Shown here: positions 9,512 through 23,765 of the stretch, one piece after another | Position numbering within the stretch: the first letter of the stretch is position 1 | How the letters are laid out: every line of letters starts with the position of its first letter | Sequence record: PX092659.1 | Source of the DNA: a phage | Reading direction: 5' to 3' (one strand) | Length of the DNA stretch: 64,000 nt | The notes under the pieces: model-generated | What the model saw: the letters and a program-made list of their open reading frames with translations, nothing else | The model's database searches: none | What the model was told of the DNA's origin: nothing | Position numbers and translations under genes: made by a program

Positions 9512-9575
9512 CTACAATTTTAACTAACTTTGCTCACCCTCGCCATAACTTTCTATCCCTCAACTGAATGATAAT

Positions 9576-9604: not shown

Positions 9605-9654
9605 TAACCACTTTATAATTCCGATATGGTAGATGGGTAGCAAAGGGTTATGTA

Positions 9655-10692: not shown

Positions 10693-11004
10693 TTATTCTT
10701 TTTCCGCCAGGCGTTTAGCTTCTTTTTCTACTTCTAATAAAACCTCACTATTAGATAATATTTTAGTAAATGCCTTAAATAAATGAGATGTTGTTTCTAG
10801 AGTGTATGGCATACTGAATCCACTTTTTGTTGGAAACCATTCACCTTCTATATCTTGGAGCCAGTACCTAATTCCTAAGTATAGATTCCCCCTAAACTCA
10901 GATACAGTTAGCCTAACCTGTTGGCCATCTTCTCTTTCCCAGATAACTATGGACTGATCATCTACATGTCCAACATAATCCTGATTTACATTATCTCCCG
11001 ACAT
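10693..11004 (-). CDS. hypothetical protein
   Basis: 103-aa track ORF, co-oriented; overlaps downstream gene start. Confidence 0.5.
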   Translation of the reverse strand: MSGDNVNQDYVGHVDDQSIVIWEREDGQQVRLTVSEFRGNLYLGIRYWLQDIEGEWFPTKSGFSMPYTLETTSHLFKAFTKILSNSEVLLEVEKEAKRLAEKE

Positions 11005-11651
11005 TTTATTGCTCCCTGACTTAGGAGATATTCCTCTGCCTCCTCTGGTTGAATATTAAAAAACTCAGTAGAACCATCAAATATTGATTCTGTAAATATC
11101 TGTGTAGTACTAAAAAATCTATGAGCTTTATTTTCTAGATTATACGCTGACTCATCATAAGAGTATACTCCATATATACTCAAGTCCTCCAGATTAGAAT
11201 CTTTTTTGATCTCTAAAAGTCTTCTATCTGGACTTTTAGATGTTCCTATTTTTGTGCCTAGTTGTGGGCTATAAAATACGTATAAATAGCTAGTAGATTT
11301 ACACATAGGGCATGATCTACCAGCATTTTTAACTTTATCTACACTACTAGTCCACGTGTGTCCGTGGGTGCACTCAAATATTGCCGGACTTTGGGAATTT
11401 ATATAGGAGGATATAAGTTTTATACCTTTAGTACTTAACTGTTGATTTATGACCTCTACAGTTAGTTTAGCTTTGCCACTACAATAAGGGCAGCCACTAC
11501 CTTTCCGTATATTACTTAAATATCCCTTCCATTGATGACCTTTTGAACACTCAAATATAGCGGGTGTTCTTATATTAGCCCATTCACTCACTATATGAAA
11601 ACCTAGTGGCTCTAACTCTTTATTTATTTGCTCTTCTGTTAATTTTTTCAC
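10986..11651 (-). CDS. Zn-ribbon repeat protein with C-terminal T5orf172-like (GIY-YIG superfamily) domain
   Basis: 221 aa; repeated CxxC zinc-ribbon units (GSGCPYCSGK, GRSCPMCKS) then YVFYSPQLGTKIGTSKSPDRRLLEIK; paralog of 22845-23708. Confidence 0.55.
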   Translation of the reverse strand: MKKLTEEQINKELEPLGFHIVSEWANIRTPAIFECSKGHQWKGYLSNIRKGSGCPYCSGKAKLTVEVINQQLSTKGIKLISSYINSQSPAIFECTHGHTWTSSVDKVKNAGRSCPMCKSTSYLYVFYSPQLGTKIGTSKSPDRRLLEIKKDSNLEDLSIYGVYSYDESAYNLENKAHRFFSTTQIFTESIFDGSTEFFNIQPEEAEEYLLSQGAIKCREIM

Positions 11652-11663
11652 TATAATTTACAT

Positions 11664-11689
11664 ATGACAAAGGAGAGCCGAAGCTCTCC
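11664..11689 (-). terminator. rho-independent terminator (minus strand, possibly bidirectional)
   Basis: Stem GGAGAGC / GCTCTCC with CGAA loop; T-run on both sides. Confidence 0.6.
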
Positions 11690-11698
11690 TTTTCTTTA

Positions 11699-11989
11699 TT
11701 ATTTTTTGCCTACTGGCGTAGCTCTATCAAGTTCACTAGACAATGAAGTGACACGTTTCACCTTATTTACAGGAATAAATCGGAAGCTATCATTAGTGCG
11801 ACTAAACACTAGAATTTCGTCATCTTTTGGTTGACGGATACGCTCCTGAGCAAAACGTTTACTTAGGTACTTATCAGTAAAATCCATAGTGCCCTGTAAA
11901 TAGGTAGTGCCCTTTTGACGGAGCTTTTCGTAATGAAGATAAAATTCATTATGAGCTTCACATGCGGAGATAATTTCTTGCTTAGTCAT
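11699..11989 (-). CDS. hypothetical protein
   Basis: 96-aa track ORF, co-oriented. Confidence 0.5.
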   Translation of the reverse strand: MTKQEIISACEAHNEFYLHYEKLRQKGTTYLQGTMDFTDKYLSKRFAQERIRQPKDDEILVFSRTNDSFRFIPVNKVKRVTSLSSELDRATPVGKK

Positions 11990-12004
11990 TTTTAATCCCC
12001 CTTA

Positions 12005-12415
12005 TTACTTAGTGATAGCTCGGATTGCTTCTGCCAGATGAGCAGCCGCTTTACCGGTCAGTTTGTCGATAATTGCATCATCCAGAAAATCTGGTGCTAA
12101 GCCAGCATCAGAGAACGCTGAACGAAGATCAGCATGAGCTTGGGCTTTGGAGGTACGAGAGCCACCGGAAGCTTTTTCTCCAGTAGATGCACTAGATTTA
12201 GAAGTAGAACCAGCAGCTTTCTTGATATACAAACCTGCTTTAGTCAGTTTCATACGAAAACCGTTCGGAGTTACACCATTTTCCTGGGCAATTTCACTAA
12301 CAATTTCCATGCTAACGCCCGGACGTTCATCCTCTGGGAATTGCTCCATACGAGCAACGTATTCGGAAGACATTTTTTCGAACAGTTCATCAGTCCACTG
12401 AGTTGGAGTAGTCAT
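12005..12415 (-). CDS. hypothetical protein
   Basis: 136-aa track ORF; promoter cassette at 12473-12501 just upstream. Confidence 0.5.
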   Translation of the reverse strand: MTTPTQWTDELFEKMSSEYVARMEQFPEDERPGVSMEIVSEIAQENGVTPNGFRMKLTKAGLYIKKAAGSTSKSSASTGEKASGGSRTSKAQAHADLRSAFSDAGLAPDFLDDAIIDKLTGKAAAHLAEAIRAITK

Positions 12416-12472
12416 ATTTTATATTTCCTTAATTAAGAATTAAACAGAATAGTTCTTTCAAACTATGAGAAT

Positions 12473-12501
12473 ATTATATCAAGAATTATAGGATTAAGCA
12501 A
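12473..12501 (-). promoter_or_regulatory. sigma70-type early promoter (minus): TTGCTT-N17-TATAAT
   Basis: Reverse complement gives TTGCTT, 17 nt, TATAAT. Confidence 0.6.
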
Positions 12502-12518
12502 CTGAAATTTTTAAGTAG

Positions 12519-12794
12519 TTACTCCACTAGGCCAACAGCGAGCATATCATCAATGCTGGCAACCTCCCAATCGTCCGCAATAGCTTCGCATACTGTTAAT
12601 GAAACAACCTCGCTATATGGATAGTTACCGGCTACCCAGGTATGCTGAGTAGCTACATCCGAGTCAGCATCTAAAGTTAGTAACACTAAGCCGTTATTAT
12701 CGTTATCCCAGCTTCTGCGATATAGTGTTTTTACTTCCCCATCTTTAAGTAAATCAGTTAGTTTACTCACGGCGTTTTCCTTTTTCTTTATCAA
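12519..12794 (-). CDS. hypothetical protein
   Basis: 91-aa track ORF, co-oriented. Confidence 0.45.
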   Translation of the reverse strand: MIKKKENAVSKLTDLLKDGEVKTLYRRSWDNDNNGLVLLTLDADSDVATQHTWVAGNYPYSEVVSLTVCEAIADDWEVASIDDMLAVGLVE

Positions 12795-13467
12795 GTTTCA
12801 AGGCAGCCTTAACAGCTTCGTTAATCAGTGTGATAACTTCTTCCCGGGACCATTTGTACCCCAGAGACTTTACATCAACCCCTAACTTTTCCAGATGTTT
12901 AACAGAAGCCAGCTCGTAATTCATATAATGAACGTTCTGTTGTTTGCCTTCCGATAGTAACCAGACTCGATAACAACCAACAGGATTATCCATTGCTTTT
13001 TTGATTTCACCGATACACTGGTATCCAGGAACCCAAACTAGTTCTCCAACTTCAAATTCTTCTGCTACAGCATCATCAGGAATAATTGGAGGATTCAATG
13101 GATCTACAATATCGTTCAAACGAAGTAGAGCACCATATCGTTCCAGAACAGATTTAACCATTGCTACAGAGCGATAATTACGATCGGCAATCTCTTCAAA
13201 AGAATCGCCAGATAGATACTGTTCAATAACGTTGGCCAACTCAATACCTTCAATGAGTGTACCACGTTTCTTTTTCTTCATCTCAGCAACTTGAATCTGG
13301 CGGTCTTGCCATTCTTCAATCATCCTTTCCATAGTTGGGTTGGATGATACACCGAGCATTTCACATGCTGCTTTCTTAGTACCACCGTTCTCCAGATGCT
13401 CTATAACTTTTTTAAAGACTTCATCCGGGATTTCATGGATATGTTTTTTTCTGCGAGAACCAGCCAT
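12763..13467 (-). CDS. hypothetical protein, possible HTH DNA-binding protein
   Basis: 234 aa; basic N-terminus followed by a helix-turn-helix-like segment (TKKAACEMLGVSSNPTMERM); promoter cassette immediately upstream. Confidence 0.5.
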   Translation of the reverse strand: MAGSRRKKHIHEIPDEVFKKVIEHLENGGTKKAACEMLGVSSNPTMERMIEEWQDRQIQVAEMKKKKRGTLIEGIELANVIEQYLSGDSFEEIADRNYRSVAMVKSVLERYGALLRLNDIVDPLNPPIIPDDAVAEEFEVGELVWVPGYQCIGEIKKAMDNPVGCYRVWLLSEGKQQNVHYMNYELASVKHLEKLGVDVKSLGYKWSREEVITLINEAVKAALKLDKEKGKRRE

Positions 13468-13498
13468 ATTTAAACTCCTCTCTCAAATTTATGAATCT

Positions 13499-13527
13499 AT
13501 TATACAGAAAATTTTTCCTGAAAGCAA
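13499..13527 (-). promoter_or_regulatory. sigma70-type early promoter (minus): TTGCTT-N17-TATAAT
   Basis: Reverse complement gives TTGCTT, 17 nt, TATAAT, then cataaatttgagagagg before the ATG. Confidence 0.65.
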
Positions 13528-13535
13528 ATAAATTT

Positions 13536-13877
13536 TTACGATTCCTTGAGTAAAGAAGAAAGTTCAGCATATACTTTATCTAACTCAAACCCTATGCGAA
13601 GAGATACGTTAGTCCTCCGTTGTTTAAGTAACCACTCGGATATGTTAGGGATACCAGCTAATCTATGTGGTACCACCCTACATAGCTTTTCCGAAGTGTC
13701 ATAAACAGGAACTTTACGTTCTTTTACTGGGAACTTCCTTGTTTCCCATTTCTTATTCTTCACTGTCATATCTCTCCGAGGGATTAAATTCACCAAACAG
13801 CTCTTTAACTCCCCTAAGGTATAGCTGATGGGCTTCTTCCGGGGTATCTCGTCTACCAAAAATATGTTGCTTTCCAT
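13536..13877 (-). CDS. hypothetical protein (uncertain; overlaps HNH gene by about 125 nt)
   Basis: 113-aa track ORF in a different frame from the 3' end of 13753-14283; may start later or be spurious. Confidence 0.3.
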   Translation of the reverse strand: MESNIFLVDEIPRKKPISYTLGELKSCLVNLIPRRDMTVKNKKWETRKFPVKERKVPVYDTSEKLCRVVPHRLAGIPNISEWLLKQRRTNVSLRIGFELDKVYAELSSLLKES

Positions 13878-14283
13878 CGCAGTAAGCGTAGGCCATATAC
13901 CTATTACCTCGTTTTACAACTCCAGTGAATCCGGTAGAATTAGTAGAACACTTCTTATTCTTCCCATTTTCGGAATAGGTAGCCTTACGTAAATTATCCC
14001 ACAAGTTGTTTAAACTATCGCCGTCTTTATGGTCAATAGTTTTACCCCCAGGATCTTCACCTGTCTTTATAAACCAGATTATTCTATGGGCTAAGTAAGC
14101 TGTCCGCTCCCCATTTATCGTAAACTCTAGCTGTCTCCCAGTTTTCATTTTGGAGCCCGCTACCTTTCCCTTCCTTGGGCCAGATAACCAAATTAAGTCC
14201 CCAGTACTTTCGTCATACCTAAGCTTTTCTAGGATAAATGCCATAGGAGGCATTGGTTTATGCATTTTCATTAGTTGCTCCAA
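13753..14283 (-). CDS. HNH homing endonuclease (paralog family)
   Basis: 176 aa; AHRIIWFIKTGEDPGGKTIDHKDGDSLNNLWDNL HNH-like motif. Confidence 0.65.
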   Translation of the reverse strand: MEQLMKMHKPMPPMAFILEKLRYDESTGDLIWLSGPRKGKVAGSKMKTGRQLEFTINGERTAYLAHRIIWFIKTGEDPGGKTIDHKDGDSLNNLWDNLRKATYSENGKNKKCSTNSTGFTGVVKRGNRYMAYAYCDGKQHIFGRRDTPEEAHQLYLRGVKELFGEFNPSERYDSEE

Positions 14284-17044
14284 GTTCGGACAGTACTTCT
14301 TCTGCCATAGCCTTCTCTTCCTCTGTCATGAATTTGAAAGGAATTGGCATACACTCGATTTTACAATAGGTTCTGTACCAGTCTACGATATTCTCCGTGT
14401 TCATATCTTTACCAATACCCATCATACCAAGATACATTCTAGCATATTTTGGGTTAGCACTCTGACCTGTTTTAAGGAAGAAGTCCTTCTTCTTACCTTT
14501 CAGAGCCTCTATGAATGGTTTAATGGTCACATTTGAACACTTCTTAATATCTTCCCAGAACATCTCGTGCATCTTATGGAAGAATGCAGCTCGATCATTC
14601 GGTTTATCTTTGATATATTGTTCAACATGCTCAACTGTTACATCTTTAATAGACTCGAGATGATAATAGCGAACAAGAAGTAGCTTAGCTTCATATGCAT
14701 CCGCATGGCGCGGAGCACAATAATCAGGAGTTGAGTGCAGAATAGCTTTGATTCGCTCCTCTGTGTACTCTTTACCAGCACCTTCAATAGTTCCCCAGCT
14801 TTCACTGAAAATATCAATAGTTGCACCCTGATCAAGCAAGTAATAACGTAAAGTACTAGTATAGTTCCTAGATTCTAATTCCCTGCGACGTGCGTATAAT
14901 TGCTGTGCTAACTCCAGCCAACCTTCATCAATATTATATTGTTCAGAACCTGCGGAGAATCCACTCGTAGATTTATCAATAAAATAATAGATATTTTGAG
15001 CACCACGGTCGCGCCTGATTGCTTGGAAACGCATGTTTGGCGCTTGATTACTAGTTCTAGTAATAACGAATACGTTATCAAAATAGTTGAAGTCAACACC
15101 ACTCGTTACGGATGGACTACATAATAAGCAATCAATTTGTTGATCAATTAGCTCATTAGTTGTGTAATCCAGAATACGTCTAATATCTACATCAGACGTA
15201 GAGTTTGAGTGGATTTCCTTAACTAACGCACCCGTATTACGACGCAACGCCATGCCCTTCTCATTCAGTTCATCTGGCCCACAGTCAGATACTAGGATAG
15301 ATTTCTCACCCATCTCCAGGGAAGTCTGAAGTGCAACCCAAATACTAGACTCATCAGGGAACTCATAAGCATGAGCTTTTGATAGCATTTTACGGTGGTG
15401 ATTGTAAAATGCAACCGGTTTATCAAACTCAATCAAAGAACCATATGCTTCAATTGTTTCTGCACTAATATCCCCATCAGATAATATAATGATTTTTGCA
15501 GTTGCAAGAATATCCCGAAGAACCTGAATACATTCACGACGTTGTTTAACAACCGGGGCGAATAATAGGTCATTCATTACAGCGTCACATTCATCGATAA
15601 AGATTGCATCGATTTGACCAATAAAACTCTTGAACTTATGTAAAGAGTGAATAGTTGTGGACATACGGTCAATAGCGCCACGCTTAAAATTAAGCATATC
15701 TACAGACTTATCATATTGTCCTGCACTAAATTTCTTAGCATTTGAAGATACCAGTGCTCGAGTATTGGTAATTGCTAAGAAATTACCTTTAATAACTCCT
15801 GAATCTAACCAACGAACAACAGCCGTTGTTTTACCCGTGCCTAGGCTTGCTTTTACAAAAGTCATATAGCCTTCTGGTGGTACAGTATTTAATTTCAAGA
15901 AGTTGTCGGTCTCTAGTGAGTTAGTCTCTAGTTTTTTAAGTGGAATACCTTTTAAAACATCAGGTATATCACGTTTAGAATTATTCACAAAGGCTTTTAA
16001 CGCCTGCTTACGACCGTTATTAAAGTAATCTTGAATATTACGACTATTATCTTTAGTTGCAATATACTCAGATAAAGCTGGGCGGATCTCCTTCTCTAGC
16101 CAGCCAAAATCTACACCATCCTCTAGTGCTCGGTGATAGAGTTTAGGAATAATACGTAGATATACACCATCCTCAGCTTCTTCTAACTCGCTGATGGTTT
16201 CTTCTACTTTATCAGAGGCAGCTTTTTTACCCTTAATTTGGTCTAGTAAAGAGTAGAACTCTTCCTTAAACTCACCTCTAGTTGTTTCATAGTCAACTAG
16301 ATTATTAGGTAAATTTACTTTTGAGCCTTTAACAAATACCAGACGTGAAGCACCCTCCGCTTTAAACGGATCTACTATACCATCAGTGAATAAAGGATCT
16401 GCAAAGTAATGGAGCTGTACGGAAGAGTAATAAGCTAAGTCGGCAATATCAAAGCCATACTTTTGTCTACTACTTTCGTTGATAGATGTAAATAAGAATT
16501 TGATTTGACCCTGAGTTACTTTAACATTAGATTCTAGTATTAAGTGCATTCGGATACCTGGTTTTAGCCCAGCCGAAGACGATGCATGAGCGATAAACCC
16601 TGCATCAAGAGGAAACATATCCTCACTAATACTATTTAACATTCTAATAATATGTCGAGCCATGCCAACAAGATCAAACTTGTTACAACCACCTGTATCT
16701 ACAATACCATCCACGTCCATTGCAATTATATGACTTGGGTTAGATACATTAAAGTTGCCCTTCTTACGTCGCACATTATTTTTAGGTGCAAGACATCGAC
16801 CTCGTACCGCAACGATATGAGGGTCAGACGTTAAACGTCTCATAAGAGGAAGCATTTCTACTAGGGTTTGAGGATCAACTTCATCAATTACATCAAACTT
16901 GAAGGGCATTGAAGCTGGTTTACCTTCAGGATGCTTTGAGGAAAATCTTTTAGCAAAAAGATAGTCTTCTGCTTTAACTTCTCGCCAATTGCCTGTGGCT
17001 AAATCGCGATGAAATCCTGCATGACCTTGTAGGATTGAAAACAC
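14258..17044 (-). CDS. large P-loop NTPase, replication-associated (origin-binding / helicase-like)
   Basis: Track ORF starts at TTG 17122; GTG at 17044 preceded by AGGAG is the more likely start. Walker A KASLGTGKTT and Walker B-like IFIDECD. Confidence 0.55.
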   Translation of the reverse strand: MFSILQGHAGFHRDLATGNWREVKAEDYLFAKRFSSKHPEGKPASMPFKFDVIDEVDPQTLVEMLPLMRRLTSDPHIVAVRGRCLAPKNNVRRKKGNFNVSNPSHIIAMDVDGIVDTGGCNKFDLVGMARHIIRMLNSISEDMFPLDAGFIAHASSSAGLKPGIRMHLILESNVKVTQGQIKFLFTSINESSRQKYGFDIADLAYYSSVQLHYFADPLFTDGIVDPFKAEGASRLVFVKGSKVNLPNNLVDYETTRGEFKEEFYSLLDQIKGKKAASDKVEETISELEEAEDGVYLRIIPKLYHRALEDGVDFGWLEKEIRPALSEYIATKDNSRNIQDYFNNGRKQALKAFVNNSKRDIPDVLKGIPLKKLETNSLETDNFLKLNTVPPEGYMTFVKASLGTGKTTAVVRWLDSGVIKGNFLAITNTRALVSSNAKKFSAGQYDKSVDMLNFKRGAIDRMSTTIHSLHKFKSFIGQIDAIFIDECDAVMNDLLFAPVVKQRRECIQVLRDILATAKIIILSDGDISAETIEAYGSLIEFDKPVAFYNHHRKMLSKAHAYEFPDESSIWVALQTSLEMGEKSILVSDCGPDELNEKGMALRRNTGALVKEIHSNSTSDVDIRRILDYTTNELIDQQIDCLLCSPSVTSGVDFNYFDNVFVITRTSNQAPNMRFQAIRRDRGAQNIYYFIDKSTSGFSAGSEQYNIDEGWLELAQQLYARRRELESRNYTSTLRYYLLDQGATIDIFSESWGTIEGAGKEYTEERIKAILHSTPDYCAPRHADAYEAKLLLVRYYHLESIKDVTVEHVEQYIKDKPNDRAAFFHKMHEMFWEDIKKCSNVTIKPFIEALKGKKKDFFLKTGQSANPKYARMYLGMMGIGKDMNTENIVDWYRTYCKIECMPIPFKFMTEEEKAMAEEVLSELGATNENA

Positions 17045-17643
17045 AACAATACTCCTGTGTTGGAAATGGAATAAGTTTTCTTTAGGACTATTCAGAAAGA
17101 ATAGAACAACTGTTACTGTCAATTTCTCAACAAATTAATTGCAAATACTGAAGTGGGGTGGCAACTTCCACTTTCACGCTGCGCTGCTGCCTCATTATAC
17201 CGCACAAATCCTTGAGGATGGCCGCTAAGCCAGATTTGCTCACCTAATGCTTCATATACTAGCTCATACTAGATGCAATATAACTTACAGAATCACGTCT
17301 CGGTAGTTTTTCACTCCTCCCATCTCACTTCACAACCACCTCATACTAGGTTGCTTCGAGGCCTTACCAGGGTTCCTATGGGACGCAGATCGCTAAGTAT
17401 TCTATTAACTATTTGCTTAAAAACTAACACGTAACAGTTAAAACAACCCTTAATGGGGCAGCCTAACTGTTCCGTATCGCGGATTGTAAACAAGAAAAAA
17501 CTTTTTCGTAAAGCTCTAGCAACGTACCTTATGCAGCTATTTACGGGTCATCGATTCCTCTCGCCGTAAATCTCTTGTCAGCTTCACTAAGAAAAATTAG
17601 TAAAAGATCAATTTTTACTAATGTCTCTCAATTCAATATAAAT

Positions 17644-17672
17644 ATTATAGCAAGATTTTGAGCATCATGCAA
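17644..17672 (-). promoter_or_regulatory. sigma70-type early promoter (minus): TTGCAT-N17-TATAAT
   Basis: Reverse complement gives TTGCAT, 17 nt, TATAAT; would start a roughly 600-nt untranslated leader before CDS 14258-17044. Confidence 0.55.
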
Positions 17673-17707
17673 GTAGATTTTTAAAGAGAATGCTATCAGT
17701 GTCTTTG

Positions 17708-17740
17708 AGCACAGAGAAAACCGAGCCAAAATGACTCGGT
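17708..17740 (-). terminator. rho-independent terminator (minus strand)
   Basis: Stem ACCGAG / CTCGGT followed on the minus strand by TTTTCTCTGTG; directly downstream of CDS 17749-17943. Confidence 0.6.
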
Positions 17741-17748
17741 TATACGGA

Positions 17749-17943
17749 TTAATCATAAAAAAGACCACGAATAGTATTAGCAAATTTAAGTATAATAGCG
17801 CGGTTTGAGCTACTTAACTTTTTAATATCGAAAGTGGGATCAGTCAAATATCTCGCCATAAATTTTACTTGTTTAGCTGAAAGTTGACCCTTATTCCACT
17901 TTTTAATTTTACCATAACATACCCAATATTCTTTATTCATCAT
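17749..17943 (-). CDS. hypothetical protein
   Basis: 64-aa track ORF. Confidence 0.4.
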   Translation of the reverse strand: MMNKEYWVCYGKIKKWNKGQLSAKQVKFMARYLTDPTFDIKKLSSSNRAIILKFANTIRGLFYD

Positions 17944-18325
17944 TTAGTCCCGGAACATAGATCCCAACACGATTTAATTGTTCTTTAGCTTCTTTGAGAA
18001 TATCTGGAGTGTACTCCCAAATATCATCTTCCACCTGTAAAAGATGTGGCGAACAACCGTCATCAGGCACACGACATATGGCCAAACCACGTGGATGGAA
18101 CAAAGAGAAATTTAGGGCAACAATCAAGCCCATAGCAGACAATTCATTCCAATCCAATTCCCATTCCCTGGCATATCCAGACAGGAAAATGCCAATGCAT
18201 GGATCATCTATTTGCTGCTCCGGAAAAGTGAAGGAGGCTTGTCTTACCCCCAACCAACGTTGTAGCAGCTTCTCCGCACGCTTCACCAAACTAGGATCAA
18301 TCTGACGCCAGTATACTTGTTCCAT
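17933..18325 (-). CDS. hypothetical protein (paralog of 18335-18763)
   Basis: 130 aa; shares motifs with the neighbour (PCIGI.L, W.ELD.N/EL..MGL..ALN..LF.P, C-terminal GIYVPGL). Confidence 0.5.
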   Translation of the reverse strand: MEQVYWRQIDPSLVKRAEKLLQRWLGVRQASFTFPEQQIDDPCIGIFLSGYAREWELDWNELSAMGLIVALNFSLFHPRGLAICRVPDDGCSPHLLQVEDDIWEYTPDILKEAKEQLNRVGIYVPGLNDE

Positions 18326-18334
18326 TATGCCTCC

Positions 18335-18763
18335 TTAGGCAGTTAAACCCGGAATTTGATAACCAAAACGGCGAAGTTTTTGGATACCATCATTTACTTC
18401 TTCCGGTGAGTAAGACCAACCATAACGTTCATTAACCTGAAAACCAGGAGATTCACTAGTTTTATAGTTAACAACGAGGCGATGCTTAGCAGGCATAAAC
18501 AGCTTATAGTTTAACGCAAAAACTAAGCCCATTTCATCTAACTCTTTCCAGCCGACAATTTCTTCAAGACCATCCTCTACCTGCACAATTAAACCAATAC
18601 AGGGAGCCTCATCAATATCATCTTTAAAAGCAAAGGAGATTTCGTTATTCTCACACCATATTTTCAAAGAGTTAATAGCCTCATTATACAGGCTAGCTGG
18701 GAGAGTACGCCAAAAGTTAACCAAAATTGGGTTAGCTTCTTTAGAGAGTACATTATTGAACAT
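18335..18763 (-). CDS. hypothetical protein (paralog of 17933-18325)
   Basis: 142 aa; APCIGLIVQVEDG, WKELDEMGLVFALNYKLFMP, C-terminal GYQIPGL. Confidence 0.5.
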   Translation of the reverse strand: MFNNVLSKEANPILVNFWRTLPASLYNEAINSLKIWCENNEISFAFKDDIDEAPCIGLIVQVEDGLEEIVGWKELDEMGLVFALNYKLFMPAKHRLVVNYKTSESPGFQVNERYGWSYSPEEVNDGIQKLRRFGYQIPGLTA

Positions 18764-18765
18764 AT

Positions 18766-19272
18766 TTACACCTTAAATTGTTGTAAGGATTTACACATTT
18801 CAAGATCTGGGCTAAATTCTAGCATATAGCTAACAGCTTTTAAATCTTGAAGATTTATCCCAGTCCTACCGTTGACTATAACTGTTGGATACTGATACAT
18901 CATAGCACCCGCATCATCAAGTACACACCAATGTTTGAGCTTATACTTTTCAACGAAACGAAGAACAGAATTACCCCTAGATAATCCACCTCCAGTAAAA
19001 TCCGTTGTACCAAGAAAACGATCGATAAGACCTAATCTGGTCATAATCTGAACGTTCTCCATCTCATTTCTAACAGAGAACCAAGATGATACTCCAACAA
19101 TCATTATCGGAGAAGGACGAATAAAGTCCTGAAAAGCCTTGAGAAGCGGTTTGAAAACCCAGTCACTTCCAAAGAAAATCTTTTCATCATCAGGTGCATG
19201 ATGGTGGGAGATGCTCGAATTGAGCACCCCATCAATGTCTAGAAAAATAATCGGAGTATTACTTATTTCCAC
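18766..19272 (-). CDS. HAD-superfamily hydrolase-like protein
   Basis: 168 aa; N-terminal HAD motif I FLDIDGVLN and later VLDDAG. Confidence 0.5.
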   Translation of the reverse strand: MEISNTPIIFLDIDGVLNSSISHHHAPDDEKIFFGSDWVFKPLLKAFQDFIRPSPIMIVGVSSWFSVRNEMENVQIMTRLGLIDRFLGTTDFTGGGLSRGNSVLRFVEKYKLKHWCVLDDAGAMMYQYPTVIVNGRTGINLQDLKAVSYMLEFSPDLEMCKSLQQFKV

Positions 19273-19441
19273 TTTTGTCCCTTTCTAAGAACGTATCATA
19301 CTCAACCGTATCAACATATATGACACCATAGTCATCGGATTTATAGTCCATTTCCCACAGCTCACAGCGATAGCACCAACTACCGTCCGCCCATACAAAT
19401 ATATCATCAGGGTGTGCATACACAGATTTAATTATGGACAT
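19259..19441 (-). CDS. hypothetical protein
   Basis: 60-aa track ORF. Confidence 0.4.
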   Translation of the reverse strand: MSIIKSVYAHPDDIFVWADGSWCYRCELWEMDYKSDDYGVIYVDTVEYDTFLERDKSGNK

Positions 19442-20255
19442 ATTTGTTCCCCGGCATATAAGGCCTACCCTCTAGATGAGCTTCTACACGAGCAATAAAA
19501 TCAGGGTCACTGAAGGCATCTACAGCCCCTTTACCCCAGTAAGGGATACCGCGTTCTTCCAACTGGTACATCTCACTACGAGTCATGCCTTGATAGCCAG
19601 GTTCCGCTGCTAGGGCATTATCATAGTAGTTAACAACCATTAGCTTGGCAGCAGTAAGGTTAAGAATAGGAAATAATTCCCAGTAGAAGTTAATTACTTG
19701 GTTAGAGCAACCAACCACAATGATCATATCTTGACTGGTAATACCATCAAAAACATTGTACATTTCTGTATATGCTGGAGCATGCTCACCAAAGAAGATG
19801 ACATTAGGTTTAACCCATTTATAGTCATCTGGGTCAATAGAGTTATACCCAACATCAATAATTCGTTTATTACTACTATTGTAGCTATCAGCTACAACAA
19901 CCTCCTTTAAGTATCCATGAATGTGGAGAATATCATTATGGGGAACACCAGCACGCTCAATAAGGTCATCAACGTTAGTAGTCAAATTTACTACTTGACC
20001 TGGGTATTGTTTATACCACTCACCAATACGAAGATGCGCAAGGTTAGGTTCAACAGTTTTTAGCTCTTCACGACGCTTGTTGTAAAACATATGGGTTTTA
20101 TGATAAAAATTACCACGAAAGGCATGAATATTACATACTTCTTCTAGATCATAATCATCCCACAATGCTTTACCACTAGCAGTATCAGTACGAAAGGCTC
20201 GTACACCACTTTCAACGCTCAAACCCGCACCGCTAATAATAATTAATCTACGCAT
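19428..20255 (-). CDS. Sir2-family (sirtuin-like) NAD-dependent protein
   Basis: 275 aa; sirtuin motifs GAGLSVESGVRAFR, TTNVDDLIERAG, catalytic-His region LHIHGYL; no Cys4 zinc module seen. Confidence 0.65.
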   Translation of the reverse strand: MRRLIIISGAGLSVESGVRAFRTDTASGKALWDDYDLEEVCNIHAFRGNFYHKTHMFYNKRREELKTVEPNLAHLRIGEWYKQYPGQVVNLTTNVDDLIERAGVPHNDILHIHGYLKEVVVADSYNSSNKRIIDVGYNSIDPDDYKWVKPNVIFFGEHAPAYTEMYNVFDGITSQDMIIVVGCSNQVINFYWELFPILNLTAAKLMVVNYYDNALAAEPGYQGMTRSEMYQLEERGIPYWGKGAVDAFSDPDFIARVEAHLEGRPYMPGNKYVHN

Positions 20256-20469
20256 TTTTCACCTGTTCTCTGAAGTTTTGCCCAATACTGTCTAATAGCT
20301 CAGCTAATTCTTTATTGCCTTTCTCCATTAAGGTATTAGCAATAACTTCTAGCATAGTAGCGCAGGATTCAACACCATCCTTATAGCCAGTTTCCCAGTG
20401 CTGCATTAATGCGTTTTCCAAAGCGGCGTTTAAACCCTTATCTGGTAGTATCGGCTTCAAGAATGCCAT
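20248..20469 (-). CDS. hypothetical protein
   Basis: 73-aa track ORF. Confidence 0.45.
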   Translation of the reverse strand: MAFLKPILPDKGLNAALENALMQHWETGYKDGVESCATMLEVIANTLMEKGNKELAELLDSIGQNFREQVKNA

Positions 20470-20641
20470 AAAGTTTCTCCTCTAATTCCATAACACGATT
20501 TTCATAAGAGGCACGCAACTTTTCAATTGCCAGTGCACGCACCGTAACCTCATTAGAATTAATAGCTAATTGGGCCAGATCTTCTGTTTCCATACGTCCG
20601 TTGTAAATTAAGCGATATTTAAGATGTTTTACGTTTTTCAT
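20438..20641 (-). CDS. hypothetical protein
   Basis: 67-aa track ORF. Confidence 0.45.
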   Translation of the reverse strand: MKNVKHLKYRLIYNGRMETEDLAQLAINSNEVTVRALAIEKLRASYENRVMELEEKLYGILEADTTR

Positions 20642-20650
20642 TCTTGTTCC

Positions 20651-20932
20651 TTAGTTCTGTACTGTAAATTCATTCTTATCACAGTGAGCATAATAATACC
20701 CATACATACGATAAATCTTCACAGCCTTAGTAGACCCCTTCGATTCTTCGTAATCAATCCAGAGCCACTTGTCTTTACCTACATAATGTACCCGAAACTT
20801 CTTAACTTTCTTATCATTCCATGTTGCAACAACACGACGATAATCAAATCCGCCCAACCAATCCAGAGCTTTACGTTCTTCACTAGGCTCTCCAAGATGG
20901 GAGACATCTACTTTAGGAAGCAACTCGCTCAT
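20651..20932 (-). CDS. hypothetical protein
   Basis: 93-aa track ORF; promoter cassette immediately upstream. Confidence 0.5.
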   Translation of the reverse strand: MSELLPKVDVSHLGEPSEERKALDWLGGFDYRRVVATWNDKKVKKFRVHYVGKDKWLWIDYEESKGSTKAVKIYRMYGYYYAHCDKNEFTVQN

Positions 20933-20960
20933 AACTTTCTCCTCTCAAATTTATAAATCT

Positions 20961-20989
20961 ATTATATATAAATTTTTGGCTGAAAGCAA
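20961..20989 (-). promoter_or_regulatory. sigma70-type early promoter (minus): TTGCTT-N17-TATAAT
   Basis: Reverse complement gives TTGCTT, 17 nt, TATAAT. Confidence 0.65.
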
Positions 20990-21031
20990 ATAAAATAAAA
21001 GCCAGGTCGACTAGCAACCCGGCTGATTAGC

Positions 21032-22858
21032 TTACTTAAGATTTAAGTGTTTTACTCTACCAAGAACTTCTTTTTGTTTCCCAGAATTGAAAGGCCTACT
21101 GCCAGGAGATCCCAGGTACCCGCAAACCCTACGTGTAACCTCTATTTCTTCAGACCCACAACTCGGACATACAAACCCACGTTCAGAGGCAACAGATTCA
21201 CCCATATACCCACAGTTGAAGCACTCATCAATTGGTATATTAACACCAATATAATGGCTACATTCTAGCCCCTTATCCACCACATACTCAAGAGCTTTGT
21301 GGAACTTTTTCATTTGAGGTAGTTCCACAAATGATATATTACCACCATTAGCTATTTTGGTAAAATGAGCCTCGTACTCAAATTTAGTATCTGGAGCTAC
21401 CTTCTCTCTTACGTCCAAATGGTGACTATTAGTAAGATAGCCTTTGTCTGTTAACCAAGAATACTCTGGGAATCTACGTTCTAGTAATTTATTAAAACGA
21501 TTACATAGAGACTCACTAGGAGTAGCATACAAGCTAAACCCAAGATTAGTCTCATTAGCTTTAACTTCGCAACGATTTTTTAGGTGAGTGAGAACTTCCT
21601 CTGTAAATTCAATACAGTCCCTATGGGTCTGTGGTAAACTAAACATTATTTGGCACATCTCATAGACCCCAATATACCCAAGAGATACAGAGGATCTACC
21701 CTCAAAAATAGGCCATACATATTCTTCCCCTTCTAAACGTGCACCAAACCCACCGTGCATATAAAGAATAGGGGCTTGTTTAGCCTTAACTTTCTTCAGT
21801 CTGTTTAAGAAGAAGTCATGCGCTTCAAAAGCCTCATCCACATATTTGTCTAGAATACCCCAGAAATCTTCAAAAACTCCATCTGCCTCAGCAGCAACCA
21901 TAGGTAGATTGATAGACACAACACCTAAATTATTACGTCCTGCAATTTCTCCAGAGGGGATAGCAGATAAAAAACTACGACAACCCATAGGGGCTTTAAA
22001 ATCACCAGTAACAGCTACAACTCTCTCGTAACTTAAATAGTCTGGATACATACGAGTAGCAGAACACTCAAGTGCTAGCTGTTTTATATCATAGTTAGGA
22101 TCACCTGGGTTTTTATTTAACCCTTCTTTAACTGAGAATACTAGTTTAGGGAAGATAGGGGTTGACTCAGCAGCACCTAAACCTTTAATGCGATTTTGGA
22201 GGATGGCTTTCTGAATCATCCTTTCCTCCCACTCCTGCCCTAATCCAAAGCCAAGCGTAACAAAAGGGGTCTGCCCATTAGAGTTAAATAATGAATTAGT
22301 TTCATACTCTAGAGCTTGGAATGCATCATAACACTCTTTTTCAGTAAGCTCAGTAGCATACACAGCAGCTTTTCTTTCATCCTTGAGCCAACGTAGCCCA
22401 CGACCCAGATGTTTATTGTAAGACTTTCTGACATACGGGGCTAGAACCTCGTCGATACGATCAATAGAGGTGCCACCATACTGAGCACCAGATACTTGGG
22501 CAATAATCTGAGCAGTGATTGCACATGCAGTAGTTATGGATTTAGGAGTTTCAATATTTGCATTACCAATTTTAGTACCATTCTTCAGCATGCCACCAAG
22601 GTCTACTAAGCAACAGTTAGTGTACCCCTGCGCCCTGTAATCCATATCATGAATGTGTATCTTACCTAGATTATGTGCGTCTAATAGATGTTTGGGTAAT
22701 TCCTGCGATACTAAATACTTGTTGATTTCTCCGGCTAATAAGTCTCTTTGAGTATGGAACATCTCACTAGGCTTATTAGCATTATTATGTTGTAAGTCCT
22801 TGTCAGCAGTTAGAGTGAGCAGGCCTTTGCAATTCTCAATTAATTCATTCTCTGTCAT
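21032..22858 (-). CDS. nrdD: anaerobic ribonucleoside-triphosphate reductase (class III RNR)
   Basis: 608 aa; C-terminal Cys4 zinc ribbon (CFNCGY...CPSCGS) and glycyl-radical motif RRVCGYLGS. Confidence 0.8.
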   Translation of the reverse strand: MTENELIENCKGLLTLTADKDLQHNNANKPSEMFHTQRDLLAGEINKYLVSQELPKHLLDAHNLGKIHIHDMDYRAQGYTNCCLVDLGGMLKNGTKIGNANIETPKSITTACAITAQIIAQVSGAQYGGTSIDRIDEVLAPYVRKSYNKHLGRGLRWLKDERKAAVYATELTEKECYDAFQALEYETNSLFNSNGQTPFVTLGFGLGQEWEERMIQKAILQNRIKGLGAAESTPIFPKLVFSVKEGLNKNPGDPNYDIKQLALECSATRMYPDYLSYERVVAVTGDFKAPMGCRSFLSAIPSGEIAGRNNLGVVSINLPMVAAEADGVFEDFWGILDKYVDEAFEAHDFFLNRLKKVKAKQAPILYMHGGFGARLEGEEYVWPIFEGRSSVSLGYIGVYEMCQIMFSLPQTHRDCIEFTEEVLTHLKNRCEVKANETNLGFSLYATPSESLCNRFNKLLERRFPEYSWLTDKGYLTNSHHLDVREKVAPDTKFEYEAHFTKIANGGNISFVELPQMKKFHKALEYVVDKGLECSHYIGVNIPIDECFNCGYMGESVASERGFVCPSCGSEEIEVTRRVCGYLGSPGSRPFNSGKQKEVLGRVKHLNLK

Positions 22859-23708
22859 TGATTATTTCCTCGATAAACTTTATAGCTACTTTTGGTTCAA
22901 TATTGAAGAATTCCGTAGCGCCATCAAAATCTTTGTAATGGCAATTCTGTTCTTTAAAGTAGTTATGAGCTAATTTTTCGATTCGAACTGCACTACTATA
23001 TTCGCCAATTTCAAATACTTTAAGTATTTCCAAATCAATAAGGTGGCCACTAGATTTAATATGTAGAAGCCTACGCTCTGGATTGTTAGACCTACCTATT
23101 TTAACTCCATGTGTGGGGCTATGCATAACATATATCTTAGTACTTTCTAAATCTCTATAGCTACAGTAAGGACAACCGTTCCCTCTTAATACAGATCCTG
23201 GAGTAGCTCCCCACCTATGCCCTGCGCCACAGAGAAAGGTAGTCTTAGTATTCGCATTAACATATTCACCTACTATTCTGATATTTCTGGCAGTAAGACG
23301 ATCATTTATAACACTAATACTAAGTTTCTGCTTATTAATAGCACAAGACGGACAGCCACTCCCCCTATTAATTATGCTATTAAGCGTAGTAGTCCACTCA
23401 TGACCACAAATACACCTAAATTTAGTGTTTATATCAACACTATTTTTATATCCCCCCAACAATGTAATACCTCTGTCCTGTAATACAGAACTAATTTTAT
23501 CAATATCTAGTTTACGGCTATTAGTAGAGCAAGTAGGACAATTGGTCTTTCCATTCCTAATAGCGTCAAATTTAGCTGTCCATTGATGGCCATATTCACA
23601 CTGATACGTATGCCTATACCTAGAATTTTGATACGGCTTATCCACCATAGTAAAACCACGCTCGGCTAGGCATTTATCTACTTCTTCTTGGGTTAATTTT
23701 TTCGGCAT
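22845..23708 (-). CDS. Zn-ribbon repeat protein with C-terminal T5orf172-like (GIY-YIG superfamily) domain
   Basis: Track ORF runs to 23765 but overlaps the promoter; ATG at 23708 (MPKKLTQEEV) with GGAGAAGAG upstream is the likelier start. Repeated CxxC units, then IYVMHSPTHGVKIGRSNNPERRLLHIK. Confidence 0.55.
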   Translation of the reverse strand: MPKKLTQEEVDKCLAERGFTMVDKPYQNSRYRHTYQCEYGHQWTAKFDAIRNGKTNCPTCSTNSRKLDIDKISSVLQDRGITLLGGYKNSVDINTKFRCICGHEWTTTLNSIINRGSGCPSCAINKQKLSISVINDRLTARNIRIVGEYVNANTKTTFLCGAGHRWGATPGSVLRGNGCPYCSYRDLESTKIYVMHSPTHGVKIGRSNNPERRLLHIKSSGHLIDLEILKVFEIGEYSSAVRIEKLAHNYFKEQNCHYKDFDGATEFFNIEPKVAIKFIEEIINDRE

Positions 23709-23736: not shown

Positions 23737-23765
23737 ATTATACTAAACATTATCCACCATGTCAA
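23737..23765 (-). promoter_or_regulatory. sigma70 promoter (minus): TTGACA-N17-TATAAT, leftward arm of divergent region
   Basis: Reverse complement gives TTGACA tggtggataatgtttag TATAAT. Confidence 0.6.

What the first reader, a model, noticed from the sequence alone, without database searches (positions are those of the whole stretch)
10986..23708. Two Zn-ribbon-repeat / T5orf172-like (GIY-YIG superfamily) paralogs
ORFs 10986-11651 and 22845-23708 both combine tandem CxxC zinc-ribbon repeats with a C-terminal T5orf172-like domain (YV.HSP..G.KIG.S..P.RRL). They are a second mobile-endonuclease-like family distinct from the HNH set; one is adjacent to nrdD, one to ligA.
Basis: partly seen in the sequence, partly recalled or inferred. 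Interest (0 to 1): 0.35.

Follow-up and report, generated by a model that had tools for sequence, protein, structure and literature searches.

The report
Two T5orf172 homing-endonuclease genes in T5-like phage
These are two intact copies of a known family of selfish "homing" nuclease genes (zinc-finger DNA-binding repeats plus a T5orf172/GIY-YIG-type nuclease domain), each inserted just upstream of a conserved gene in a T5-like phage; this is an ordinary, well-supported example of something already described.

Summary
ORF1 (10986-11651, minus strand, 221 aa) and ORF2 (22845-23708, minus strand, 287 aa) are paralogues (36% identity, E 2e-44). They carry two and three ~60-aa treble-clef zinc-finger repeats (C-x3-H…C-x2-C; Pfam DUF4379/CapR) and a C-terminal T5orf172/MUG113 domain, all above Pfam gathering scores. 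The window is a T5-like phage (Demerecviridae).

Both genes behave like free-standing homing endonuclease genes:
- They are present in only about 5-6% of related phage records and absent from T5 and Gostya9.
- Each is inserted immediately 5' of a conserved gene (nrdD; a PC4-like gene one gene from ligA) and carries that gene's ribosome-binding site.
- Each is flanked by abruptly more divergent DNA.
- At the nrdD site, the "empty" phage Gostya9 keeps a decayed 3' remnant.
- Other T5-like phages hold different T5orf172 genes (43-48% identical) in the same slot.

The catalytic residues are invariant and align with the experimentally validated Glu of ICP1 Odn. dN/dS is about 0.15. The predicted domain fold matches T5orf172 proteins strongly and Slx1/UvrC weakly.

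This architecture and its enrichment in T5-like phages near ribonucleotide reductase genes are published (Barth et al. 2023), and orthologues are already annotated. Novelty is low. Cleavage and homing remain inferred.

The parts
10986..11651 (-). ORF1: 221-aa free-standing T5orf172 homing-endonuclease gene (GTG start, no strong Shine-Dalgarno sequence)
   Evidence: ORF; Pfam DUF4379/CapR/MUG113/T5orf172 above cut-offs; PHROG 681 E 4e-49; dN/dS 0.15 against the SP01 orthologue
11295..11648 (-). ORF1 DNA-binding region: two ~60-aa treble-clef Zn-finger repeats (aa 2-59 and 60-119; ligands C35/H39/C54/C57 and C94/H98/C114/C117)
   Evidence: Repeat alignment and C-x3-H...C-x2-C pattern; DUF4379 with 2 stretches, plus CapR
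10989..11294 (-). ORF1 T5orf172/MUG113 nuclease domain (aa 120-221; predicted catalytic set Y124, K134/G136, R144, E173, H177, E196)
   Evidence: Pfam; invariant columns; alignment to Odn E180; residue numbering
10996..11768 (.). ORF1 insertion cassette: segment with no blastn match in the HEG-less phages Gostya9 and T5, where about 125 bp stand instead. It comprises ORF1, a hairpin (11669-11692) and the recoded last ~23 codons of the upstream 96-aa gene.
   Evidence: blastn boundaries; protein C-terminus of the 96-aa gene conserved although its DNA diverged; hairpin
10693..11004 (-). PC4-like ssDNA-binding gene immediately downstream of ORF1. Its Shine-Dalgarno sequence (AGGGAG) and start lie inside ORF1's 3' end. 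It is a divergent allele linked to the HEG.
   Evidence: Pfam PC4; junction sequence; 66-78% identity to HEG-less phages against 98-100% to HEG-carrying SP01
22845..23708 (-). ORF2: 287-aa free-standing T5orf172 homing-endonuclease gene, the first gene after an early promoter and upstream of nrdD
   Evidence: ORF; Pfam; PHROG 681 E 1e-63; orthologues at 89-93% identity annotated 'endonuclease' or 'putative homing endonuclease'; dN/dS 0.17
23157..23702 (-). ORF2 DNA-binding region: three ~60-aa treble-clef Zn-finger repeats (aa 3-62, 65-124 and 125-184)
   Evidence: Repeat alignment; DUF4379 with 3 stretches; AlphaFold model with three similar helix plus beta-hairpin modules, pLDDT 85.7, pTM 0.41
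22848..23153 (-). ORF2 T5orf172/MUG113 nuclease domain (aa 186-287; Y193, K203/G205, R213, E244, H248, E266 invariant)
   Evidence: Invariant columns; AlphaFold pLDDT 92, pTM 0.84, beta-beta-alpha-beta-alpha fold; Foldseek against T5orf172 proteins E 7e-10 and Slx1 probability 0.92; E244 aligns with Odn E180
23737..23765 (-). Consensus sigma-70 promoter (TTGACA-17-TATAAT, 12/12) driving ORF2 and nrdD. It is conserved in HEG-less Gostya9, where it directly precedes nrdD.
   Evidence: Promoter scan; sequence; conserved flank in Gostya9
22966..23707 (.). Segment of ORF2 missing from Gostya9. The remaining ~105 bp (22859-22965 equivalent) survive there as a pseudogene remnant.
   Evidence: blastn alignment, and translation of the Gostya9 remnant 'HSNYCKE*NCQYRSFNGV...KFIEEII' against ORF2 'AHNYFKEQNCHYKDFDGA...KFIEEII'
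21032..22858 (-). nrdD (class III ribonucleotide reductase), class-A allele. Its Shine-Dalgarno sequence (GAGGAA) and ATG lie inside the last codons of ORF2.
   Evidence: Junction sequence; 99% aa identity to Gostya9/ESCO40 nrdD but about 60% to T5/NBEco002/Kenya-K20 nrdD

Best explanation
ORF1 and ORF2 are two intact, free-standing homing endonuclease genes of the T5orf172 branch of the GIY-YIG nuclease superfamily, resident in a T5-like phage.

Each protein is a 'beads-on-a-string' enzyme. An N-terminal array of two or three independently folded treble-clef zinc fingers (CapR/DUF4379 type) reads an extended DNA target. The C-terminal T5orf172 domain cuts DNA using a Tyr/Lys-Gly/Arg/Glu active site.

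Inferred mechanism: during co-infection with a related phage that lacks the gene, the enzyme cleaves the HEG-less allele near the insertion point (the nrdD leader or 5' region for ORF2; the junction between the 96-aa gene and the PC4-like gene for ORF1). Recombinational repair then copies the HEG and a variable stretch of flanking DNA from the HEG-carrying genome. The carrier's own site is protected because the insertion and the linked sequence differences destroy the target.

Both genes are embedded so as not to harm the phage. Each lies directly 5' of a conserved gene, overlaps its start codon and supplies its ribosome-binding site.

Shown here: domain content, conservation of catalytic and zinc ligands, purifying selection, patchy distribution, insertion boundaries, a decayed remnant, linked divergent flanks and turnover of family members at one slot.

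Inferred: zinc and DNA binding, nuclease activity, target location and homing itself.
For: Domains: T5orf172, MUG113, DUF4379 and CapR are all above Pfam cut-offs, and PHROG 681 'endonuclease' matches.

Active site: Y193, K203/G205, R213, E244, H248 and E266 (ORF2 numbering), plus the Zn ligands, are invariant in 27 homologues at 22-91% identity. E244 (ORF2) and E173 (ORF1) align with Odn E180. The E180A mutation abolishes cleavage by that T5orf172 nuclease (PMC8263062).

Fold: the C-terminal domain model has pLDDT 92 and pTM 0.84. It gives 121 viral matches at E<=1e-3, led by T5-like 'Hef-like homing endonuclease' and T5orf172 proteins at TM 0.90. The best credible PDB matches are the GIY-YIG nucleases Slx1 (probability 0.92, rmsd 2.6 A) and UvrC.

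Selection: dN/dS is 0.15-0.17, against 0.015-0.026 for nrdD and ligA.

Mobility signatures:
- A filled ORF2 site occurs in 27 of 441 matching phage records and a filled ORF1 site in 13 of 255.
- T5 and Gostya9 lack both genes, and SP01 has both.
- The cassette boundaries are sharp.
- Gostya9 keeps a stop- and frameshift-bearing 3' remnant.
- Flank identity drops to 66-78% (PC4-like gene) and 60-75% (nrdD against T5), within genomes that are 90-99% identical elsewhere.
- The nrdD slot holds three mutually 43-48% identical T5orf172 genes in different phages, even where nrdD is 99% identical.

Literature: the same architecture, its enrichment in T5-like phages and its association with ribonucleotide reductase genes are published (PMC10448857).
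Against: No cleavage or homing assay exists for these proteins. Barth et al. note that homing has not been verified experimentally for T5orf172 genes even in ICP1.

Links to canonical GIY-YIG enzymes are statistically weak. The window proteins have no PF01541 hit at E<=1. hhalign against I-TevI/SegG gives probability 0.3%. PDB Foldseek E-values are 0.16-0.8, and the PDB sequence-profile search found no GIY-YIG chain. The second motif Tyr is replaced by Lys.

The target sites are unknown.

The divergent flanks could reflect ordinary mosaic recombination rather than HEG-driven co-conversion.

ORF2 sits behind a perfect consensus early promoter. That is unusually strong expression for a potentially toxic selfish nuclease and might hint at a function useful to the phage.
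Confidence: 0.8

Rival explanations
1. Domesticated nucleases that benefit the phage, in the way ICP1 Odn does. The zinc-finger array would direct the T5orf172 nuclease against a competitor genome (a co-infecting phage, a satellite or host DNA) for exclusion or anti-parasite defence, rather than mainly for the gene's own spread.
For: Odn shows that T5orf172 HEG domains can be repurposed this way (PMC8263062; PMC10448857). ORF2 is the first gene behind a consensus early promoter. Both genes are under purifying selection. PADLOC gives a weak domain-level hit to defence candidate PDC-S57, E 3.5e-6.
Against: The DNA-binding modules are the generic HEG-type CapR/DUF4379 fingers, not a borrowed replication-initiator domain as in Odn. 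No related DNA occurs in 5,426 complete E. coli genomes. The genes are absent from about 95% of close relatives and decay to remnants, which is not expected for a generally useful function. The PADLOC hit covers only the nuclease domain.
Confidence: 0.1
2. CapR-like DNA-binding regulators: the proteins bind near the promoters of nrdD and the PC4-like gene and regulate early transcription, with the T5orf172 domain catalytically silent.
For: PLE CapR is a HEG-derived zinc-finger repressor (PMC10448857). Both ORFs match the Pfam CapR homology domain. ORF2 lies in the divergent nrdD/phoH promoter region.
Against: Every predicted catalytic residue, including the Glu equivalent to Odn E180, is retained and invariant across the family. 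The nuclease domain is under purifying selection (omega 0.15-0.22). Most T5-like phages manage without the genes.
Confidence: 0.04
3. Inactive relics: the genes once homed but are now neutral passengers on their way to decay, and are no longer mobile.
For: HEG life cycles end in degeneration. A remnant exists in Gostya9, and an unannotated 45-aa fragment exists in DT571/2 (H85). Omega is about ten-fold higher than for neighbouring essential genes. ORF1 has a GTG start without a clear Shine-Dalgarno sequence.
Against: Both reading frames are full length with all motif residues intact. Omega of 0.15-0.17 at dS 0.3-0.8 shows sustained purifying selection. The 3' ends are additionally constrained by downstream ribosome-binding sites, but this covers only about 10 codons.
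Confidence: 0.06

Closest known systems
Orthologous 'endonuclease' / 'putative homing endonuclease' / 'T5orf172 domain protein' genes of T5-like phages (for example Salmonella phages SP01 gp056 and gp071, SP3; Escherichia phages SelmaRatti, VAH1, HZ_ZJUN2)
   Same: Same two loci, same lengths (221 and 287 aa) and same domain order, with 80-93% amino-acid identity.
   Different: Allelic differences only. The ORF1 zinc-finger region is fairly diverged from SP01 (74% aa identity, dS 1.2), while the flanking PC4-like gene is 98-100% identical.
ICP1-type T5orf172 homing endonuclease genes with repeated CapR/DUF723/DUF4379 zinc fingers (Barth, Dunham & Seed 2023, PMC10448857)
   Same: N-terminal tandem Zn-finger DNA-binding repeats plus a C-terminal T5orf172 domain. 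Free-standing, variable between isolates, next to essential genes including ribonucleotide reductases. The paper explicitly reports enrichment in T5-like phages.
   Different: Different phage lineage and low sequence identity. The ICP1 fingers are described as CxxC...CxC, whereas here the ligand set is C-x3-H...C-x2-C.
ICP1 Odn (gp88), the origin-directed T5orf172 nuclease (PMC8263062)
   Same: Homologous T5orf172 domain (BLASTP E 2e-4, 27% identity). The Tyr, Lys-x-Gly, Arg and catalytic Glu (E180) align with ORF2 Y193, K203/G205, R213 and E244. This is the only biochemical proof that the domain is a nuclease.
   Different: [quoted passage not shown] The window proteins use zinc-finger arrays and show HEG-type population behaviour.
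T4 free-standing GIY-YIG homing endonucleases (SegA-G) and intron-encoded I-TevI
   Same: A modular nuclease plus DNA-binding domain. They are inserted between or next to conserved genes (nrd, td, gene 32) and spread by intronless homing with co-conversion of flanking markers (established knowledge; T4 annotation).
   Different: Domain order is reversed: GIY-YIG is N-terminal in the T4 enzymes and C-terminal here. The DNA-binding modules differ, and the second motif Tyr is Lys here. Direct profile similarity is not significant.
PLE CapR (capsid repressor of the Vibrio cholerae satellite PLE)
   Same: Shares the CapR-homology zinc-finger DNA-binding module (Pfam PF21817, 34-43 bits).
   Different: CapR functions as a transcriptional repressor for a satellite. 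The window proteins keep an intact T5orf172 catalytic domain.

Membership tests
T5orf172 / MUG113 domain family (Pfam PF10544 / PF13455) | Profile match above the curated gathering score | tested here: met
   ORF1: T5orf172 26.9 bits (cut-off 20), MUG113 40.0 (22.3). ORF2: 41.0 and 44.1 bits. All 27 aligned homologues match both models.
T5orf172 / MUG113 domain family (Pfam PF10544 / PF13455) | Fold shared with other T5orf172 proteins | tested here: met
   The domain model (pLDDT 92) matches T5-like phage and other viral T5orf172 proteins at E down to 7e-10, TM 0.90, rmsd 0.9 A, with 121 hits at E<=1e-3.
GIY-YIG nuclease superfamily | Core beta-beta-alpha-beta-alpha fold superposable on solved GIY-YIG nucleases | tested here: inconclusive
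   The secondary-structure order fits. The top credible PDB hits are Slx1 (probability 0.92, rmsd 2.6 A over 78 columns), UvrC N-terminal domain and UPF0213, but E-values are 0.16-0.8 and TM is about 0.5.
GIY-YIG nuclease superfamily | Catalytic residues: motif Tyr, conserved Arg, metal-binding Glu | tested here: met
   Y193, R213 and E244 (ORF2), and Y124, R144 and E173 (ORF1), are invariant in 27 sequences. The Glu aligns with Odn E180, which is required for cleavage. The second motif Tyr ('YIG') is Lys ('KIG'), as is typical for T5orf172.
GIY-YIG nuclease superfamily | Direct sequence-profile similarity to canonical GIY-YIG (PF01541, I-TevI, Seg) | tested here: not met
   The window proteins have no PF01541 hit at E<=1, and only 2 of 27 relatives hit weakly (best E 0.004). 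hhalign against I-TevI+SegG gives probability 0.3%. No GIY-YIG chain appeared in the PDB profile search. The link rests on the Pfam clan assignment (established knowledge) and the published alignment (PMC8263062).
GIY-YIG nuclease superfamily | Mg2+-dependent DNA cleavage | not testable with these tools
   Needs purified protein and substrate DNA.
Free-standing phage homing endonuclease gene | Sporadic presence or absence at one locus among closely related genomes | tested here: met
   Filled sites occur in 27 of 441 (ORF2) and 13 of 255 (ORF1) records. T5 and Gostya9 are empty and SP01 is filled at both sites.
Free-standing phage homing endonuclease gene | Insertion next to a conserved or essential gene without disrupting it | tested here: met
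   ORF2 overlaps the nrdD start by 14 nt and contains its Shine-Dalgarno sequence. ORF1 overlaps the PC4-like gene start by 19 nt and contains its Shine-Dalgarno sequence.
Free-standing phage homing endonuclease gene | Linked flanking sequence tracts (co-conversion or allele linkage), plus degeneration and turnover | tested here: met
   Identity drops next to both genes. A pseudogene remnant exists in Gostya9. Three different family members occupy the nrdD slot, and nrdD is 99% identical between window and ESCO40 while their HEGs are 43% identical.
Free-standing phage homing endonuclease gene | Site-specific cleavage of the HEG-less allele and super-Mendelian inheritance in crosses | not testable with these tools
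   Requires nuclease assays and mixed infections. Also not yet shown for any T5orf172 HEG according to PMC10448857.
CapR / DUF4379 treble-clef zinc-finger DNA-binding repeats | Profile match and a conserved four-ligand zinc site in each repeat | tested here: met
   DUF4379 scores 39.8 and 55.2 bits, and CapR 34.0 and 43.2 bits. C-x3-H-x14-15-C-x2-C is present in all five repeats, and the Cys ligands are invariant or nearly invariant. Metal and DNA binding were not tested.

The most novel reading that the evidence does not exclude
The promoter-proximal slot upstream of nrdD may be a HEG 'landing pad' where successive T5orf172 genes, less than 50% identical to one another, replace each other. 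These nucleases may cut the rival nrdD allele class, so that the HEG and the whole nrdD gene move as one unit. That would explain why two nrdD classes only about 60% identical at the protein level persist in T5-like phages that are otherwise 90-95% identical. It would be a concrete, testable instance of the 'HEG island / boundary of genetic exchange' idea in a tractable coliphage system.
Probability: 0.3. Interest if true: 0.4.

Novelty: already known. Interest (0 to 1): 0.15.

Why it matters
It matters little for discovery. The gene family, its zinc-finger-repeat plus T5orf172 architecture, its abundance in T5-like phages and its preference for ribonucleotide reductase neighbourhoods are all published, and orthologues of both genes are already annotated as endonucleases.

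Its value is as a clean worked example. Two paralogues in one genome show every genomic hallmark of homing: filled and empty alleles, a decayed remnant, linked divergent flanks and slot turnover. They occur in phages that are easy to cross in E. coli or Salmonella.

Homing has not been demonstrated experimentally for any T5orf172 gene. T5-like phage pairs such as this one against T5 or Gostya9/DT57C would therefore be a convenient system for that test, and for asking whether these nucleases drive exchange of whole essential genes such as nrdD.

Tried and rejected
1. MAFFT three-way alignments of filled against empty sites misplaced the short empty-site sequence. I replaced them with blastn boundary mapping.
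2. I looked for an ORF1 remnant in the empty alleles of Gostya9 and T5 by permissive tblastn and found none. Unlike the nrdD site, that site gives no direct evidence of prior occupancy.
3. The PDB sequence-profile search with the family alignment gave only a marginal DUF4379 hit (E 0.08) and no GIY-YIG chain.
4. Foldseek with the full-length model was diluted by the flexible multi-domain arrangement. I re-ran it with the isolated domain.
5. hhalign of the T5orf172 domain alignment against a two-sequence T4 I-TevI/SegG profile was not significant (probability 0.3%, E 0.19). The target profile was too thin (Neff 1.7), so I treat this as inconclusive rather than negative.
6. Searches of 5,426 complete E. 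coli genomes with both genes (blastn, word 11) found nothing. There is therefore no sign of a host- or satellite-borne counterpart. Salmonella genomes were not available to search.
7. NCBIfam has no model for either protein. PADLOC gives only weak, domain-level hits to candidate PDC-S57, which I do not take as evidence for a defence role.
8. I considered and rejected that a HEG causes the ligA/ligB split. The ~200-bp gap between ligB (8673-9455) and ligA (9655-10626) holds no ORF, and in T5 it holds promoters.

Full report
**What is there**

The window is from a T5-like phage (Demerecviridae, Tequintavirus-like). The 14.5-kb stretch containing the finding matches 465 phage records. The best match is Escherichia phage ESCO30 at 93.6% identity, and gene order is the same as in T5 (ligB-ligA … obp … sir2 … nrdD | phoH).

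The two proteins are paralogues: 36% identity over 217 residues, E 2e-44, with ORF1 aligning to residues 65-279 of ORF2. A tblastn of both proteins against the whole window finds no third copy.

**Domain content**

Both proteins exceed Pfam gathering scores for DUF4379 ('probable treble clef zinc finger'), the CapR homology domain, MUG113 and T5orf172. Both match PHROG 681 'endonuclease' at E 4e-49 and 1e-63.

The N-terminal part is a tandem array of ~60-aa units, two in ORF1 and three in ORF2.

An AlphaFold model of ORF2 is locally confident (mean pLDDT 85.7) but has low pTM (0.41). That is expected for independently folded beads on a string.

The isolated C-terminal domain (aa 186-287) models at pLDDT 92 and pTM 0.84, with a β-β-α-β-α core plus a C-terminal helix.
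- Against predicted viral structures it gives 121 matches at E ≤ 1e-3. These are led by a T5-like phage 'Hef-like homing endonuclease' (TM 0.90, rmsd 0.9 Å) and many 'T5 Orf172' and 'GIY-YIG nuclease' proteins.
- Against the PDB, the best credible matches are the GIY-YIG nucleases Slx1 (probability 0.92, rmsd 2.6 Å over 78 columns), UvrC N-terminal domain and UPF0213. Their E-values are only 0.16-0.8.

**Active site**

I aligned 27 homologues that carry both domain types, at 22-91% identity to ORF2. The invariant columns are Y193, K203, G205, R213, E244, H248, F261, G263 and E266 (ORF2 numbering), plus the zinc ligands. The ORF1 equivalents are Y124, K134, G136, R144, E173, H177 and E196.

I fetched ICP1 gp88 (Odn), the one T5orf172 protein with biochemical data. 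Its E180 aligns with ORF2 E244 and ORF1 E173, and the Tyr, Lys-x-Gly and Arg positions also align. The E180A mutation abolishes DNA cleavage in vitro and function in vivo (PMC8263062). The catalytic constellation is therefore intact in both window proteins.

Direct similarity to canonical GIY-YIG enzymes could not be shown here:
- The window proteins have no PF01541 hit.
- Only 2 of 27 relatives hit PF01541 weakly.
- hhalign against T4 I-TevI/SegG is not significant.
- The PDB profile search found no GIY-YIG chain.

That T5orf172 belongs to the GIY-YIG clan is established knowledge (Pfam clan; alignment in PMC8263062), not something I re-derived.

**Are the genes alive?**

Against the SP01 orthologues, dN/dS is 0.15 for ORF1 and 0.17 for ORF2, with similar values in the finger and nuclease halves. 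The neighbouring nrdD and ligA give 0.015 and 0.026. The genes are therefore under purifying selection that is real but about ten-fold weaker than on essential genes. That fits functional selfish genes and argues against relics.

**Mobility signatures**

*Patchy distribution.* DNA covering the filled ORF2 site occurs in 27 of 441 matching phage records, and the filled ORF1 site in 13 of 255. T5 and Gostya9 lack both genes, while SP01 has both.

*Defined cassettes.* Homology to Gostya9 and T5 stops at about window 10995 and resumes at 11769 (ORF1 site). For the ORF2 site it stops at 22965 and resumes at 23708.

*A remnant.* The Gostya9 'empty' nrdD site still holds about 105 bp of the 3' end of an ORF2-like gene. 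It contains an in-frame stop and a frameshift: 'HSNYCKE*NCQYRSFNGV…KFIEEII' against 'AHNYFKEQNCHYKDFDGA…KFIEEII'. That allele is therefore a deletion derivative, not a naive site. No such remnant was found at the ORF1 site.

*Linked divergent flanks.* The PC4-like gene just downstream of ORF1 is 66-78% identical to the HEG-less phages but 98-100% identical to HEG-carrying SP01, while sequence further out is 93-99% identical to all three. The last ~70 bp of the upstream 96-aa gene are recoded at the DNA level while its protein sequence is kept.

*Slot turnover.* In ESCO40, NBEco002 and Kenya-K20 the same promoter-proximal slot upstream of nrdD holds two-finger T5orf172 genes of 222-223 aa. These are only 43-48% identical to ORF2 and to each other's type. 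Window and ESCO40 have nrdD proteins 99% identical but HEGs 43% identical.

*Two nrdD classes.* nrdD itself occurs in two classes about 60% identical at the protein level. Class A is found in the window, Gostya9 and ESCO40; class B in T5, NBEco002 and Kenya-K20. Both sit inside genomes that are otherwise 90-95% identical.

**How the genes are embedded**

A perfect consensus σ70 promoter (TTGACA-17-TATAAT, 23765-23737) and a GGAG ribosome-binding site precede ORF2. The same promoter directly precedes nrdD in HEG-less Gostya9.

ORF2's last codons (…IEEIINDRE*) contain the nrdD Shine-Dalgarno sequence (GAGGAA) and start codon, with a 14-nt overlap. This explains why the 'FIEEII' tail is shared by all occupants of the slot and by the remnant.

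ORF1's 3' end likewise contains the Shine-Dalgarno sequence (AGGGAG) and ATG of the PC4-like gene, with a 19-nt overlap. ORF1 itself has a GTG start without an obvious Shine-Dalgarno sequence and follows a hairpin at 11669-11692. I infer low expression from this.

The PC4-like gene (Pfam PC4) and a promoter lie between ORF1 and ligA.

**Mechanism (best explanation, confidence about 0.8)**

These are free-standing homing endonuclease genes. The zinc-finger array reads a long target, and the T5orf172 domain cuts the HEG-less allele of a co-infecting relative near the insertion point. Recombinational repair then copies the HEG and variable lengths of flanking DNA.

The domain content, intact active site, selection and population-genomic signatures are shown. 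Metal and DNA binding, cleavage, target location and homing are inferred.

The rivals are less likely, for these reasons:
- Odn-like domesticated weapon (0.10). The fingers are the generic HEG type. No counterpart exists in 5,426 E. coli genomes. About 95% of relatives do without the genes.
- CapR-like regulator (0.04). The catalytic residues are conserved and constrained.
- Inactive relic (0.06). The frames are intact and ω is about 0.15.

**Comparison with what is known**

Barth, Dunham & Seed (2023, PMC10448857) describe T5orf172 HEGs with repeated CapR/DUF723/DUF4379 zinc-finger domains as 'beads on a string'. They report enrichment in T5-like phages, find 33% of such genes in neighbourhoods containing ribonucleotide reductase genes, and propose that HEGs mark boundaries of genetic exchange. 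They also state that homing has not been verified experimentally.

GenBank and RefSeq already label the orthologues 'endonuclease', 'GIY-YIG nuclease family protein', 'T5orf172 domain protein' or 'putative homing endonuclease'.

The finding is therefore already known. The window adds only new alleles: the best amino-acid identities are 89% for ORF1 and about 93% or higher for ORF2.

**Verdict**

Novelty is low and I score interest at 0.15.

The most novel reading still open (probability about 0.3) is that the nrdD-upstream slot is a HEG landing pad, and that its occupants drive exchange of whole nrdD alleles between T5-like phages. It could be tested by crosses and cleavage assays in a very tractable system.

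Noticed in passing
window 21032-22858 (nrdD); loci L002, L003, L005-L007: T5-like phages carry two nrdD allele classes only about 60% identical at the protein level. Class A occurs in the window, Gostya9 and ESCO40; class B in T5, NBEco002 and Kenya-K20. Neighbouring genes are 90-95% identical at the DNA level. The divergent block runs roughly from window 20.9 to 23.8 kb and ends at the HEG/promoter edge.
   Followed up: partly
L002 (Gostya9) 13038-13141: An unannotated ~105-bp pseudogene remnant of a T5orf172 HEG (one stop, one frameshift) sits between the early promoter and nrdD in a phage scored as 'empty'.
   Followed up: yes
window 13753-14283 (-): A 176-aa HNH_3 endonuclease ORF (Pfam E 2e-13) lies between the obp/replication-origin-binding gene and the D2-like gene. 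The segment of about 13774-14267 is absent from Gostya9 and SP01 but present in T5 ('putative endonuclease'). This is a second, independent HEG-like presence/absence polymorphism.
   Followed up: partly
window 20600-20930 (93-aa ORF 20651-20932, minus strand): The small gene just downstream of nrdD has no blastn match in Gostya9 or T5 but is 98-100% identical in SP01, and it has no Pfam hit. It is another variable cassette bordering the nrdD block.
   Followed up: no
window 8673-10626: The NAD-dependent DNA ligase is split into two separate ORFs: ligB (8673-9455) and ligA (9655-10626, adenylation plus OB domains only). The ~200-bp gap between them holds no ORF, and in T5 it carries two annotated early promoters. 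The split is conserved in T5-like phages and is not caused by a resident HEG here.
   Followed up: partly
NC_047749.1 (Escherichia phage DT571/2) 95216-95350, hit H85: An unannotated 45-aa stretch is 60% identical to ORF2 finger repeat 3 at a third genomic location. It is probably another decayed HEG fragment.
   Followed up: no
GenBank records OR849466.1, OR847452.1 ('Listeria phage LM 4-14-1 / 4-11-1') and some 'Campylobacter phage' records: Short records (1.5-3 kb) labelled as Listeria or Campylobacter phages match this enterobacterial T5-like sequence at 93-97% nucleotide identity. They look like mislabelled or contaminant contigs.
   Followed up: no
window 11699-11768 (3' end of the 96-aa gene): The last ~23 codons of the gene upstream of ORF1 are too diverged at the DNA level for blastn to align with HEG-less phages, yet the protein is nearly unchanged (…FIPVNKVKRVTSLSSELDRATPVGKK against …FIPVAKVRRITSLQSELDRASPVGR). 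This could be a co-conversion tract or target-site immunity changes.
   Followed up: partly
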